Source: Escherichia coli (GTDB lineage: Bacteria; Pseudomonadota; Gammaproteobacteria; Enterobacterales; Enterobacteriaceae). Taken from it: a stretch of 64,000 nucleotides of DNA. The stretch is taken from the NCBI RefSeq assembly GCF_044324875.1, contig NZ_CP172185.1. The stretch is one strand, 5' to 3'. The stretch's first letter is position 1. Every line of letters starts with the position of its first letter. Position numbers: made by a program. Shown here one piece after another: positions 38,301-41,300 of the stretch.

Positions 38301-41300
38301 AGCCCTTTTTCTTCCAGCATGTAGCGGCAAATGGCTTCGATTTCATGCGGAGGACAGCCGTGCATCGTGGAGAGGGTAACGCCTTGTACCATGCTGGTGG
38401 GGATGCGTGCCGGTAAGGCCTGCAAGCATTCGCGTTTTTCCTGTAAGCCGTGGCGGGCTAAAAATGCGTCATCCTGGAGTAGTTTATTAAGCGTATCGCG
38501 GTACTGTGCGAATTTCGGATGGTCAGACGCGTCCATCATATTATCGATGAACTGCTGCATGGGCGGCTGTTTAATCCCTTCAAGGTTATAACCGACGCTC
38601 ATATTAAAGATAAATGACTTACCGGATCCTGATGGCTGGAACATCGCTTCCAACAGATGCAGGGCAAACCAGGCTTTGAGGTATTCATCCCAGGCTTTAA
38701 GCAGGGTAAATTCGGTGGACCATTCGGTGTTAAAGCACTCGTCTTCGGCATCAATACAGGGCTTTTCCAGCTCCAGGCGGTCAAGAATTTGGACGGTTTT
38801 TAGTTCGATGAAGCGTCCGCCAGTTAGCCAGGAAGTGACAATATTTTGCGCGAGCTGCGTGTGCGGGCCAGCGGCAGGGCCGACGGGAGTGGCACAGGTT
38901 TCACCGAAGACACTAACAGTTTTACCTTTTACGGGTGAGTAAAACTGTTGCTCGGGAATACCAAAGATTGAGCGTTGTTGTTGGTATTCATCAAATATGC
39001 GCGTCAAAAGTTCCTCAAACGGAATGGGACGCATAATATCCCCCATAACCCTCTCCTTAGCTTATACAGATATCATTGAGTGACCGGTGTTGAGAAATCC
39101 GGTGGTTTAGGGGTATAGAGCAACAATCGCACCACTCTTGCCAGGTTTGGCGGGAAATATAAAAAAATGTGAGGCGGCTCGAAACTTAGGAGCTTTTTGT
39201 GAATGAACTCACAGGTGCCAAATGAGAATTAAAATCACTCCTGAAAATTATTATTGCCAGCCCATTTATCACTTTTTCTCTTTTCTCAAAATCAGTGATT
39301 CCTTATCATTATGATAAAGAGTGCTGGAGGGATTAAATATTTGAACGCAATCGTTTAACTACATTTTCTAAATTTTAGTATACCTTTTTTGCGCTGTAAT
39401 AAAGTCGTCCGGAGTATCAATATCTAAAATTATTTCTGCATTTTCTATTTCGACGGAATAATGATCTCCCATAAGGAGTGCCTGACGCATATTGGTGATA
39501 TTGGGACGCTGGATTGCCTGCATCAGGCATGGCTTTGACACTAAAATCGGATGGCCGGGAATGCCATTATGGAGTGGCAGTATTGCGCCATCATTTCGTA
39601 ACGACCAGATTTTTCTAAAAATATCGATGGTGAGGGTAGGCATGTCACCGTGGGTGAGAAAACAATATTCTGTTTTTACCGCGGGTACTGCGGCCTTTAC
39701 TGATGTGAGTAAACCCTGCGCATAATCTGGGTTGTGAATAATAGTGATATTGCTCTGGTTCGCATAACGTTCGTGCAGTTCATTACCACGATAGCCGGTG
39801 ACTAAAATAATTCGGCTACAAAACTGCAACGCATTTTTGATACTTGTATCAAGAATTGTTCCCTGTTGCCAGGGTAACATCATTTTCCATTGCCCCATTC
39901 TTGATGATAATCCGGCAGCGGTAATTATACAGTCGATGGCTGACATAGTGGTTCCATTATTTATAGGGGCTAATAACGCCTGATAATTGCGTTACTTCCT
40001 GATGGATTAAGTTGGGGATAATTTATCCCAGAGAGGTCATAAAGACTCGTGAAAAGTATAGTTGACCCATCGGCATTATTCATTGATTTAGGCGCGCAGA
40101 AACGTCCCACTGTGATTTCTGTTGTTGGGGCTGGGGGGAAAACCAGCTTGCTTTTTTGGCTGGCAGAACTGCTCCAGGCTAGCGGCAGGCGTGTGTTAAT
40201 CACTACGACGACACATATGTTTATGCCAACGTCTCACTGGCCCGTGGTTTTCTGTCGTGATCCCGCCATGCTTCCTCATGCGTCTCTTACATCCCCCATT
40301 TCATTTTGTTTTCACAGCTGGAAAGCGAACCAGGGAAAGGTGCAGGGATTTACGCCAGAAGCGATTGATGCACTGGTGCAACGACCAGAGTGTGACGTAA
40401 TTCTCATTGAGGCAGATGGCTCGCGTGGAATGCCGTTAAAAGCGCCTGATGAGCACGAACCTTGCATACCTAAAAGCAGTTGCTGCGTGATTGCTGTGAT
40501 GGGAGGACATATTTTGGGTGCAAAAGTGAGCACAGAAAATGTCCATCGCTGGTCGCAGTTTGCTGATATTACTGGGTTAACACCTGATGCACCCTTGCAA
40601 CTGAGCGATCTCGTTGCGCTGGTTCGCCACCCTCAGGGCGCGTTTAAAAACGTACCGCAAGGTTGTCGGCGAGTCTGGTTCATTAACCGTTTTTCTCAAT
40701 GTGAGAATGCGATTGCGCAAAGCGAGCTCCTTCAACCGCTGCAACAACACAACGTAGAGGCAATCTGGCTGGGCGATATACAAGAACATCCTGCAATCGC
40801 GCGCAGATTTGTGAATTAGCGGCCCGGGTATTCCGGGTTACTGAAAGGATATCCATTGAGGTTGGTATGAATATTTTCACAGAGGCTGCAAAACTCGAAG
40901 AGCAAAATTGTCCGTTTGCGATGGCGCAAATTGTAGATAGCCGAGGCTCTACTCCCCGCCATTCTGCACAAATGTTAGTGCGCGCCGATGGTTCTATCGT
41001 CGGTACAATTGGTGGAGGAATGGTTGAGCGGAAGGTGATTGAAGAGTCGCTTCAGGCATTGCAGGAACGTAAGCCGCGATTATTCCATGGACGTATGGCT
41101 CGTAACGGTGCGGATGCTGTCGGGTCAGATTGTGGAGGTGCAATGTCAGTATTTATCAGCGTCCATGGTATGCGTCCACGTCTGGTGTTGATTGGCGCGG
41201 GGCATGTCAACCGGGCGATAGCCCAGAGTGCGGCGCTATTAGGATTTGATATTGCCGTTGCCGATATTTATCGCGAAAGCCTTAATCCTGAATTATTCCC

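What the first reader, a model, noticed from the sequence alone, without database searches (positions are those of the whole stretch)
39047..39367. Candidate sigma54 promoter and GTGATAAATGGG element upstream of the ygfK-ssnA-ygfM-xdhD operon
The minus strand at 39119..39134 reads TGGTGCGATTGTTGCT, a good match to the sigma54 -24/-12 consensus TGGCACG-N4-TTGCW with correct GG/GC spacing, about 60-75 nt upstream of the ygfK start. About 135 bp further upstream the minus strand carries GTGATAAATGGG (39261..39272 in plus-strand coordinates), nearly identical to GTGATAAATTGGG upstream of xdhA (54819..54831). That spacing is typical for an enhancer-binding-protein site relative to a sigma54 promoter. 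The cluster encodes a sigma54 activator (ygeV) whose targets are not evident from sequence alone.
Basis: partly seen in the sequence, partly recalled or inferred. Interest (0 to 1): 0.6.

Follow-up and report, generated by a model that had tools for sequence, protein, structure and literature searches.

The report
Known sigma54 promoter of ygfK operon

Summary
It is already known. The identical 17-mer is sigma54 ChIP-seq site OS31 upstream of ygfK in Bonocora et al. 2015 and is flagged there as a predicted promoter in EcoCyc. I also found the homologous element upstream of ygfK in 74 of 80 genomes from other species.

The second element, GTGATAAATGGG, is present but does not hold up as an enhancer site. 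A match of that quality arises in 27% of shuffled region pairs. It has no dyad symmetry and lies in an indel-prone, non-conserved spacer. Only its TGATAAA core is invariant, and only within Escherichia.

The conserved candidate enhancer is a palindrome, TATCA-N3-TGATA, at 39316..39304, about 200 nt upstream of the predicted start. It precedes the ygfK sigma54 element in 70 of 74 genomes and recurs at the xdhA, ygeW/ygeV and uacT/ygfT promoters. It matches the site predicted in 2019 for the orthologous clostridial regulator DioR.

A perfect, position-fixed CRP site (39213..39198) sits between enhancer and promoter. YgeV binding remains untested.

The parts
39119..39135 (-). sigma54 -24/-12 promoter element GTGGTGCGATTGTTGCT (GG at 39133..39132, GC at 39121..39120). 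The predicted transcription start is near 39108, inferred from the usual 12-nt spacing and not mapped.
   Evidence: Sequence read. PWM score 11.8 bits, rank 7 in the window. The 17-mer is identical to ChIP-seq site OS31 for ygfK in Bonocora 2015 Table 1 (FAT 26, predicted in EcoCyc). A homologous element lies 57-124 nt before the ygfK ATG in most of the 80 loci, and 74 pass the score cut-off.
39304..39316 (.). Candidate YgeV enhancer (UAS): perfect palindrome TATCA-TAA-TGATA, or TTATCATAATGATAA at 39317..39303 when extended. Its centre is about -202 from the predicted start.
   Evidence: Invariant block B1 in the alignment of 23 Enterobacterales. With up to 1 mismatch the pattern has 7 window hits against 1.58 expected, and 0 of 100 shuffles reach 7; 5 of the 7 lie in the four sigma54-bearing intergenic regions. 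It lies upstream of the ygfK sigma54 element in 70 of 74 loci, against at most 7 for 29 control palindromes. It is the top UAS-PWM hit of the window at 22.2 bits. It is near-identical to the predicted DioR site ATTTATCATAATGATAAGG of the C. botulinum ygeW-ygfK operon.
39282..39291 (-). Conserved block B2, TTTTGAGAAA. It contains a TGAGAA half-site of the DioR-type motif variant and is a possible auxiliary activator site.
   Evidence: Conserved in nearly all of the 23 aligned Enterobacterales. Half-site count. The TGAGAA/TTCTCA variant of the DioR motif is listed for C. difficile and C. ljungdahlii.
39261..39272 (-). It is a lone TGATAA half-site in a spacer specific to Escherichia, Citrobacter and K. 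indica, not a conserved element.
   Evidence: Not conserved outside Escherichia, and lies where most genera have a shorter spacer. Within Escherichia only TGATAAA is invariant. Chance tests.
39221..39240 (-). Conserved block B3, GAGTGATTTTAATTCTCATT. It contains a TTCTCA half-site in inverted orientation relative to B2. Its function is unassigned.
   Evidence: Strongly conserved in all 23 Enterobacterales. Half-site count.
39198..39213 (.). CRP site with perfect consensus TGTGAGTTCATTCACA. Its centre is about -97.5 from the predicted start.
   Evidence: The only zero-mismatch hit in the window. Present with up to 1 mismatch in 31 of 74 loci (Enterobacterales and Morganella), 27 of them 70-71 nt upstream of the 17-mer, against at most 1 for control dyads. 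ygfK is listed as a CRP genomic-SELEX target in Shimada 2011.
39168..39183 (.). Conserved block B5, TTCGA-N6-TCACA: a CRP-like dyad with 2 mismatches, 30 bp downstream of the first CRP site (centre about -67.5). The assignment is tentative.
   Evidence: Conserved TT-GA...TCACA columns. Two-mismatch CRP pattern hit.
39047..39108 (-). Predicted 5' untranslated leader of ygfK. It has a small ACCGG...CCGGT hairpin (39103..39083) and a conserved AAGGAGAGG ribosome-binding site (39058..39050).
   Evidence: Sequence. The fold of the leader is unremarkable, z = +1.28. No Rfam family matches.
35948..39046 (-). ygfK coding sequence (1032 aa), the first gene of the ygfK-ssnA-ygfM-xdhD operon.
   Evidence: ORF list. 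RefSeq annotation of matching E. coli records.

Best explanation
The interval 39047..39367 is the regulatory region of the ygfK-ssnA-ygfM-xdhD operon, which acts in anaerobic uric-acid and purine degradation.

RNA polymerase carrying sigma54 sits at the -24/-12 element (39135..39119) as a closed complex. This occupancy is shown in vivo in the literature.

It is opened by the enhancer-binding protein YgeV (PAS, AAA+ and HTH_8 domains). I infer that YgeV binds the TATCA-N3-TGATA palindrome about 200 bp upstream (39316..39304).

YgeV would reach the polymerase by DNA looping. cAMP-CRP bound at the perfectly conserved, position-fixed site at about -97.5 most likely supplies the bend. That would make the operon glucose-repressible as well as urate-inducible.

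Shown: sigma54 occupancy (literature), sequence conservation, and regulon-wide co-occurrence of the palindrome with sigma54 promoters. Inferred: YgeV binding to the palindrome, the architectural role of CRP, and the position of the transcription start.
For: Sigma54 promoter:
- The site is present and scores in the range of validated sites.
- The identical 17-mer is a sigma54 ChIP-seq peak for ygfK, and ygfK rose on sigma54 overexpression in an earlier microarray study quoted in that paper.
- The element is conserved in 74 of 80 orthologous loci from Enterobacterales to Vibrionaceae and some beta-proteobacteria. It is absent from 4 spirochaete loci.

Palindrome as enhancer:
- It is enriched in the window and confined almost entirely to the four sigma54-bearing intergenic regions of the cluster.
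- It lies upstream of the ygfK sigma54 element in 70 of 74 loci, and upstream of 47 of 200 other sigma54 PWM hits (controls at most 7 and 6).
- It is associated with promoters of ygeW (25 of 32), uacT, ygfT, ygeV, ygfM and xdhB. It is associated with 0 of 58 sigma54 PWM hits that have no cluster gene downstream.
- The same motif was predicted for the clostridial DioR regulon, which has the same gene content.
- A high-GC Firmicute contig encodes an activator with a YgeV-like sensor domain (31% identity, E 2e-17). Its only sigma54 hit and its only three palindrome hits in 21 kb sit together, just downstream of the activator gene.

YgeV:
- It has the activator domain set.
- The operon is in the YgeV iModulon.
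- ygeV is needed for urate consumption, and ygfK is urate-induced.

CRP:
- The site is a perfect consensus at a fixed distance from the promoter across genera.
- ygfK is a CRP SELEX target.
- Glucose represses urate degradation.
Against: - No direct YgeV-DNA binding data exist in anything I could search. DioR was still called uncharacterised in 2024.
- The palindrome centre lies 155-190 nt upstream of the -24 element, further than for many enhancer-binding proteins.
- Helical phasing of that distance is only suggestive once loci are collapsed to distance classes.
- YgeV orthologues lay outside most fetched loci, so co-occurrence of the protein with the motif could not be tested.
- The transcription start is not mapped.
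- In the study read here, RpoN genomic SELEX reported the ygeV/ygeW spacer, and a search of that paper for ygfK found no mention.
- CRP could act as a repressor or anti-activator rather than a bender.
Confidence: 0.75

Rival explanations
1. One reading: GTGATAAATGGG (39272..39261) and its near-copy upstream of xdhA are the YgeV binding sites that drive the two sigma54 promoters.
For: - Both strings exist.
- Both contain a TGATAA half-site of the conserved motif.
- The xdhA copy overlaps the right arm of a real palindrome hit.
- TGATAAA is invariant among eight Escherichia sequences.
- The spacing to the promoter, about 138 nt, is reasonable for an enhancer.
Against: - Chance gives such a match in 27% of shuffled region pairs.
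- The element has no dyad partner: 4 of 5 positions mismatch in the would-be left arm, read from the sequence.
- It is not conserved in Citrobacter, Klebsiella or any other genus, and it lies in a spacer that is about 21 nt shorter in most Enterobacterales.
- Its first G and its TGGG tail vary within E. coli.
- The two copies are in opposite orientation relative to their genes.
Confidence: 0.1
2. The palindrome is the operator of a different, sigma54-independent regulator of purine catabolism. YgeV would bind elsewhere, for example at the conserved B2/B3 blocks.
For: - No binding data assign the palindrome to YgeV.
- B2 and B3 are as well conserved as the palindrome and lie closer to the promoter.
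- Palindrome-like hits also occur inside ygeX and at the 3' end of yqeC, without an obvious sigma54 site in the expected position.
Against: - The palindrome tracks sigma54 promoters specifically, across more than 70 genomes, at a constrained distance.
- It appears next to YgeV-like or DioR activator genes in Firmicutes, where the rest of the regulatory region is unrelated.
- No other regulator gene is conserved in the cluster in the E. coli window.
Confidence: 0.1
3. The sigma54 site is occupied but transcriptionally unproductive. ygfK would really be expressed by read-through from mocA or from a CRP-dependent sigma70 promoter.
For: - Bonocora et al. stress that many sigma54 sites may never fire.
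- No intrinsic terminator follows mocA.
- A perfect CRP site is present.
Against: - The -24/-12 element is deeply conserved at a fixed distance from ygfK.
- No sigma70-like promoter facing ygfK lies within the intergenic region. The only minus-strand match is upstream, at the 3' end of mocA.
- The CRP site, at about -97.5, is too far upstream for a class I or class II sigma70 arrangement relative to the predicted start.
- ygfK is co-regulated with the other sigma54-driven operons of the cluster.
Confidence: 0.05

Closest known systems
E. coli K-12 ygfK sigma54 promoter (EcoCyc prediction; ChIP-seq site OS31 of Bonocora et al. 2015, PMC4591121)
   Same: It is the identical 17-mer GTGGTGCGATTGTTGCT in the same position relative to ygfK. 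This is the same object in another E. coli strain.
   Different: Nothing differs in the promoter itself. The window comes from a non-K-12 lineage: the intergenic region is 95-99% identical to most E. coli genomes, and the ygeW sigma54 site differs from K-12 at two bases.
DioR regulon and its predicted upstream activating sequence in Clostridiales (Nie et al. 2019, PMC6615313)
   Same: - It has the same gene content: ygeW, ygfK, ssnA, ygeY, dpaL/ygeX, yqeB, yqeC, ygfJ, xdh and purine permeases.
- It has sigma54 promoters.
- It has the same palindrome: ATTTATCATAATGATAAGG in C. botulinum against CTTTATCATAATGATAAGG here.
- The site lies about 150-250 nt upstream of the promoter.
   Different: - It is in a different phylum, and the activator there is named DioR, not YgeV.
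- No CRP site is involved.
- The DioR sites are computational predictions and were still called uncharacterised in 2024.
- Orthology of YgeV and DioR is supported here only indirectly.
prpBCDE promoter of E. coli and Salmonella (PrpR activator, sigma54, catabolite control through CRP). This is recalled from my own knowledge and was not checked here.
   Same: It is a sigma54 promoter for a catabolic operon, driven by a dedicated activator, with cAMP-CRP input from a site in the upstream region.
   Different: The activator family, the inducer (2-methylcitrate) and the site layout differ. The CRP role at ygfK is inferred only from sequence and SELEX.
glnAp2/NtrC, the archetypal sigma54 enhancer system (own knowledge)
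   Same: Dyad-symmetric activator sites more than 100 bp upstream act by DNA looping on a closed sigma54 complex.
   Different: NtrC is a phosphorylated response regulator. YgeV has a PAS (and weak GAF) sensor and no receiver domain. The bend here would come from CRP rather than from intrinsic curvature or IHF.

Membership tests
sigma54-dependent (-24/-12) promoter | GG and GC doublets exactly 10 nt apart within a TGGCAC-N5-TTGCW-like 17-mer | tested here: met
   In GTGGTGCGATTGTTGCT the GG is at 39133..39132 and the GC at 39121..39120. The -24 half is TGGTGC rather than TGGCAC.
sigma54-dependent (-24/-12) promoter | Score within the range of experimentally bound sites and rare in background | tested here: met
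   It scores 11.8 bits against a training range of 7.8-20.9 (median 16.6), above only 2 of the 38 training sites. It ranks 7th of about 128,000 window positions.
sigma54-dependent (-24/-12) promoter | Conserved at orthologous genes | tested here: met
   A homologous element lies 57-124 nt upstream of ygfK in 74 of 80 loci. More distant taxa carry the canonical TGGC.
sigma54-dependent (-24/-12) promoter | Occupied by sigma54 in vivo | not testable with these tools
   From the literature: ChIP-seq peak OS31, FAT 26, same 17-mer, in MG1655.
sigma54-dependent (-24/-12) promoter | Transcription depends on rpoN and on an activator ATPase, with a start about 12 nt downstream of the GC | not testable with these tools
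   The support is indirect only: ygfK rose on sigma54 overexpression (quoted), the operon is in the YgeV iModulon, and ygfK is urate-induced. I found no mapped start.
Enhancer (UAS) of a sigma54 activator, DioR/YgeV type: the palindrome at 39304..39316 | Dyad symmetry, upstream of the -24/-12 element at looping distance | tested here: met
   It is a perfect TATCA-N3-TGATA dyad. Its centre is 175 nt upstream of the 17-mer.
Enhancer (UAS) of a sigma54 activator, DioR/YgeV type: the palindrome at 39304..39316 | Recurs at the other sigma54 promoters of the same regulon and not elsewhere | tested here: met
   Five of the 7 window hits are in the four sigma54-bearing spacers. The six best PWM hits of the 64 kb all fall within the cluster. 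The motif is associated with 0 of 58 sigma54 hits that lack a cluster gene downstream.
Enhancer (UAS) of a sigma54 activator, DioR/YgeV type: the palindrome at 39304..39316 | Conserved at orthologous promoters | tested here: met
   Present in 70 of 74 loci, against at most 7 for 29 composition-matched control dyads. The same motif is found in Clostridiales and in a Firmicute MAG.
Enhancer (UAS) of a sigma54 activator, DioR/YgeV type: the palindrome at 39304..39316 | Bound by the cognate activator (YgeV) | not testable with these tools
   I found no binding data in 37 papers that mention ygeV.
   It is a single TGATAA half-site. The would-be partner arm mismatches at 4 of 5 positions (sequence; half-site map).
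   It is not conserved outside Escherichia and lies in an indel-prone spacer. It varies within Escherichia. A match of this quality appears in 267 of 1000 shuffles.
cAMP-CRP binding site | TGTGA-N6-TCACA dyad | tested here: met
   TGTGAGTTCATTCACA has 0 mismatches and is the only such site in 64 kb.
cAMP-CRP binding site | Conserved, with fixed spacing to the promoter it serves | tested here: met
   Present in 31 of 74 loci (Enterobacterales and Morganella), 27 of them at 70-71 nt from the 17-mer, against at most 1 for controls. It is absent in Aeromonas and Vibrionaceae.
cAMP-CRP binding site | Bound by CRP and affects expression | not testable with these tools
   From the literature: ygfK is among the CRP genomic-SELEX targets, and glucose represses urate degradation. 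Whether CRP activates or represses this promoter has not been measured.

The most novel reading that the evidence does not exclude
The DioR-type palindrome TATCA-N3-TGATA is the hitherto undefined DNA site of E. coli YgeV. It would define one ancient sigma54 regulon for anaerobic urate and purine degradation shared by Firmicutes and by gamma- and beta-proteobacteria. In Enterobacterales, a position-locked CRP dimer at about -97.5 would replace the usual IHF bend as the architectural co-activator. That would explain glucose repression of gut urate degradation.
Probability: 0.6. Interest if true: 0.4.

Novelty: already known. Interest (0 to 1): 0.2.

Why it matters
The ygfK-ssnA-ygfM-xdhD operon belongs to the gut-bacterial pathway that degrades uric acid anaerobically. 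That pathway is now being engineered in probiotic E. coli to lower serum urate.

The promoter itself is old news. The site through which YgeV switches it on has not been defined experimentally. This analysis offers a precise, testable 13-bp target and a CRP site that could account for glucose repression. Both are useful for anyone rewiring expression of the pathway.

Tried and rejected
- **Rfam.** A permissive scan of 38900..39450 for a riboswitch or leader RNA gave only a meaningless snoRNA hit at E = 4.8.
- **Leader fold.** The 67-nt ygfK leader folds no better than shuffles, z = +1.28. I do not claim an RNA element.
- **Second sigma54-like element.** CTGGCAAGAGTGGTGCG (39144..39128) overlaps the real site and scores 10.9 bits. 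It is Escherichia-specific and not conserved, so I treat it as chance.
- **Helical phasing.** The enhancer-promoter distance looks strongly phased across all loci, but those loci are phylogenetically non-independent. With 11 distance classes it is not significant at 10.5 bp (p = 0.37). It reaches p = 0.005 only at a period of 11.0, which I chose after the fact. I report it as suggestive only.
- **YgeV co-occurrence.** ygeV lay beyond the 10-kb flank in most loci: 14 had it and the rest were uninformative.
- **Protein search with the YgeV sensor domain.** It returned mostly fragments. Only one distant Firmicute hit was useful.
- **Sigma70 promoter and terminator scan.** No sigma70-like promoter facing ygfK within the intergenic region, and no terminator after mocA.
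- **Literature search.** The search on 'ygeV / uric acid / binding site' was too broad and uninformative.
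Full report
**1. What the window is**

The ORF map and RefSeq matches identify the E. coli ygeV/xdh/ygfK purine and uric-acid cluster, reversed relative to K-12.

| Gene | Coordinates | Strand |
|---|---|---|
| uacT | about 22291..23868 | - |
| ygfT | 24160..26094 | + |
| ygfK | 35948..39046 | - |
| mocA (ygfJ) | 39368..39946 | - |
| ygeW | 47474..48664 | - |
| ygeV | 49141..50919 | + |
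| xdhA | 52324..54621 | - |

The flagged interval is the 321-bp mocA-ygfK spacer. This spacer with 100 bp of flank on each side is found in 5171 of 5426 complete E. coli genomes at 95-100% identity.

**2. Checking the observation**

One detail was missed. The xdhA copy, GTGATAAATTGGG at 54819..54831, is on the plus strand. Relative to xdhA it therefore points the opposite way from the ygfK copy.

*The -24/-12 element.* I built a PWM from 38 intergenic sigma54 ChIP-seq sites in Bonocora et al. 2015, leaving out the four sites of this cluster. GTGGTGCGATTGTTGCT (39135..39119) scores 11.8 bits. That is at the low end of genuine sites, but it ranks 7th of about 128,000 window positions.

*The shared element.* It fails a chance test. 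GTGATAAAT occurs twice against 0.52 expected, and 7 of 100 shuffles reach that. For dinucleotide-shuffled versions of the two spacers, 69% share an exact 9-mer and 27% share a 12/13 one-gap match.

**3. The promoter is already known**

- Bonocora et al. (PMC4591121) list in Table 1 the site OS31: motif GTGGTGCGATTGTTGCT, gene ygfK (b2878), FAT 26, marked 'P'.
- 'P' means the promoter is predicted in EcoCyc.
- The same paper notes that an earlier sigma54-overexpression microarray study also picked ygfK.
- It lists sigma54 sites for xdhA, ygeW and ygfT. It validates by mutagenesis an intragenic sigma54 promoter inside yqeC that drives yqeB. That promoter is at 40450..40466 in this window.

**4. 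Conservation of the promoter**

A genome scan with the YgeV-independent query YgfK (N-terminal 400 aa) returned 80 loci from different species.

- In most of them the best sigma54 PWM hit in the 450 nt upstream of ygfK is the homologous element, 57-124 nt from the ATG. Seventy-four pass a 9.5-bit cut-off.
- The taxa span Enterobacterales, Aeromonas, Morganella, Vibrionaceae, Shewanella, Ferrimonas and some beta-proteobacteria.
- Four spirochaete loci lack it.
- The Escherichia, Citrobacter and Klebsiella group carries TGGTG. More distant taxa carry the canonical TGGC.

**5. What else is in the spacer**

I aligned 23 Enterobacterales upstream regions. Reading toward ygfK, the conserved blocks are:

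| Block | Sequence | Coordinates |
|---|---|---|
| B1 | TTATCA-N3-TGATA | 39317..39304 |
| B2 | TTTTGAGAAA | 39291..39282 |
| B3 | GAGTGATTTTAATTCTCATT | 39240..39221 |
| B4 | TGTGA-N6-TCACA | 39213..39198 |
| B5 | TTcGA-N6-TCACA | 39183..39168 |
| promoter | -24/-12 element | 39135..39119 |
| RBS | strongly conserved ribosome-binding site | 39058..39050 |

That is the one stretch that does not align, and it is about 21 nt shorter in most genera. Among eight Escherichia sequences only TGATAAA is invariant. The leading G and the TGGG tail both vary.

**6. The palindrome as the enhancer**

*In the window.* TATCANNNTGATA with up to one mismatch has 7 hits against 1.58 expected, and 0 of 100 shuffles reach 7. 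Five of the seven lie in the four sigma54-bearing spacers:

- 23934 (uacT/ygfT)
- 39304 (ygfK)
- 48973 and 49071 (ygeW/ygeV)
- 54812 (xdhA)

*Across genomes.* The palindrome lies 40-330 nt upstream of the ygfK sigma54 element in 70 of 74 loci. The 29 control palindromes built from permuted half-sites reach at most 7, with a median of 1. It also lies upstream of 47 of 200 other sigma54 PWM hits, against at most 6 for controls.

*With a PWM.* A PWM built from 61 distinct sites places the six best hits of the 64-kb window all inside the cluster.

*By downstream gene.* The motif accompanies sigma54 promoters of ygeW (25 of 32), uacT, ygfT, ygeV, ygfM and xdhB. It accompanies none of the 58 sigma54 PWM hits that have no cluster gene downstream.

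*Half-sites.* The ygfK spacer holds six TGAKAA/TTMTCA half-site hexamers, where the window-wide density predicts about 0.5.

**7. Link to a published motif**

- Nie et al. 2019 (PMC6615313) reconstructed a clostridial sigma54 regulon under an activator they named DioR. It comprises dpaL-pyrC-argE, ygeW-ygfK-ssnA-ygeY, yqeC-ygfJ-yqeB-xdhC, xdhABC and pbuX.
- Their supplementary table lists the predicted activator sites. Examples are ATTTATCATAATGATAAGG upstream of C. botulinum ygeW-ygfK, and AATTCTCA-N3-TGAGAATT variants in C. difficile.
- The E. coli ygfK site reads CTTTATCATAATGATAAGG.
- A 2024 C. difficile paper still calls DioR uncharacterised.
- Among 37 held papers from 2015 onward that mention ygeV, none gives a YgeV DNA site.

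**8. An independent link between YgeV and the motif**

- The YgeV sensor region (aa 1-265) matches an activator from a high-GC Firmicute MAG at 31% identity, E 2e-17.
- That gene sits next to an operon of an M20 peptidase (YgeY-like) and two PALP enzymes (YgeX/DpaL-like).
- In the 21-kb locus the only sigma54 hit of at least 11 bits is at 12055. The only three palindrome hits of at least 10 bits are at 11830, 11849 and 11970.
- All of these lie in the 350-bp spacer between the activator gene and the operon.

**9. YgeV and physiology**

- YgeV has a weak GAF match, a PAS domain, the sigma54-interaction AAA+ module with its lid, and an HTH_8 domain.
- Lamoureux et al. 2023 define a 'YgeV iModulon'. 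Its gene list, as tabulated in a later study, includes ygfK, ssnA, ygfM and xdhD.
- ygfK and ygfT are strongly urate-induced in E. coli, and ygeV is needed for urate consumption (Iwadate and Kato 2019, as cited).

**10. CRP**

- B4 is the only zero-mismatch TGTGA-N6-TCACA in the window.
- With up to one mismatch it is present in 31 of 74 loci, all Enterobacterales or Morganella. In 27 of them its centre is 70-71 nt upstream of the 17-mer. Control dyads reach at most 1.
- Shimada et al. 2011 list ygfK, ygeV<>ygeW and ygfT<>ygfU among CRP genomic-SELEX targets.
- Glucose represses urate degradation unless the native control region is replaced.
- The site lies between enhancer and promoter, at about -97.5. 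I infer a bending, co-activating role like that of IHF at other sigma54 promoters. This is an inference and has not been shown.

**11. Other checks**

- No sigma70-like promoter facing ygfK lies within the intergenic region, and no terminator follows mocA.
- No Rfam family matches.
- The leader fold is unremarkable.
- The phasing analysis is inconclusive.

**12. Verdict**

The promoter half of the finding is correct and already published. The enhancer half points at the wrong 12 bases.

The conserved enhancer candidate is the palindrome 44 nt further upstream. It extends a published clostridial prediction to E. coli YgeV. It is a useful, testable refinement, but not a new kind of system.

Noticed in passing
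window 39345..39360 (minus strand), just after the mocA stop codon: A conserved box, AGTTAAACGATTGCGT, has a central CG and an AACG...CGTT dyad. It matches 12 of 16 positions of the PurR operator consensus ACGCAAACGTTTGCGT as I recall it. It is conserved in Escherichia, Citrobacter, K. indica, Edwardsiella and Enterobacillus, with related forms in Trabulsiella and Yokenella. It may be an operator for a LacI-family regulator such as PurR.
   Followed up: no
window 39083..39103 (minus strand), ygfK leader: A small ACCGG-N11-CCGGT hairpin follows the predicted start. Other taxa carry unrelated GC-rich hairpins at the same place: Aeromonas GGGG..CCCC, Rhodocyclaceae GTCCGCC..GGCGGCC, Morganella GCATG..GCATGC. 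The E. coli fold is not better than shuffles. In Enterobacteriaceae the loop contains a TTCTCA/TTATCA half-site.
   Followed up: partly
window 40693..40707 (3' end of yqeC): A perfect palindrome, TTCTCA-ATG-TGAGAA (UAS PWM 13.1 bits), lies about 165 nt upstream of the yqeB ATG. It is also about 235 nt downstream of the published intragenic sigma54 promoter for yqeB at 40450..40466. It could be a downstream-located enhancer or a chance match.
   Followed up: partly
window 47128..47140 (inside ygeX): A zero-mismatch TATCA-AGA-TGATA palindrome lies inside the ygeX coding sequence (UAS PWM 15.7 bits). No strong sigma54 site lies in the expected position.
   Followed up: no
window 49071..49083: A second palindrome-like site, TATCATCATGATC, lies about 60 nt upstream of the ygeV start codon. 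It could serve YgeV autoregulation. In Buttiauxella and Erwinia loci a sigma54 site with an upstream palindrome precedes ygeV itself.
   Followed up: no
window 31340..31356 (minus strand, inside xdhD) and 41596..41612 (plus strand, inside yqeB): The best sigma54 PWM hit of the whole window, ATGGCGCAAACTTTGCT at 15.2 bits, is intragenic in xdhD. Separately, 40 sigma54 PWM hits of at least 12 bits across the fetched loci have yqeB coding sequence downstream. A search of Bonocora's text for xdhD found no mention.
   Followed up: no
window 39128..39144 (minus strand): A second sigma54-like 17-mer, CTGGCAAGAGTGGTGCG (10.9 bits), overlaps the real one and is shifted 9 nt upstream. It is present only in Escherichia.
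   Followed up: yes
It is TTAATT(C)TCATTTGGCA, which overlaps conserved block B3 and lies in the same orientation relative to both genes (sequences). In xdhA it lies upstream of the palindromes rather than downstream.
   Followed up: partly
window 54786..54808 and 54807..54829: xdhA has two adjacent palindrome-type sites, TATCA-ATA-TGAGT and AATCA-ATG-TGATA. Their centres are 21 bp apart, about two helical turns. Nearby is an oppositely arranged perfect palindrome, TGATACGTATCA, at about 54784..54795.
   Followed up: partly
window 48756..48772: The ygeW sigma54 site in this window reads CTGGCATAGTTATTGTT. K-12 has CTGGCACACTTATTGTT. The window is therefore not K-12, and only 340 of 5171 matching E. 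coli genomes are at least 99% identical in the ygfK spacer region.
   Followed up: partly
L085 11780..12150 (Firmicute MAG JANLGA010000011.1): The YgeV-like activator gene is split into two adjacent ORFs of 414 aa and 178 aa. This is either a frameshift or a genuine split. Three palindromes and a 16.3-bit sigma54 site sit in a GC-rich spacer ahead of an M20-PALP-PALP-Na/Ala symporter operon.
   Followed up: partly
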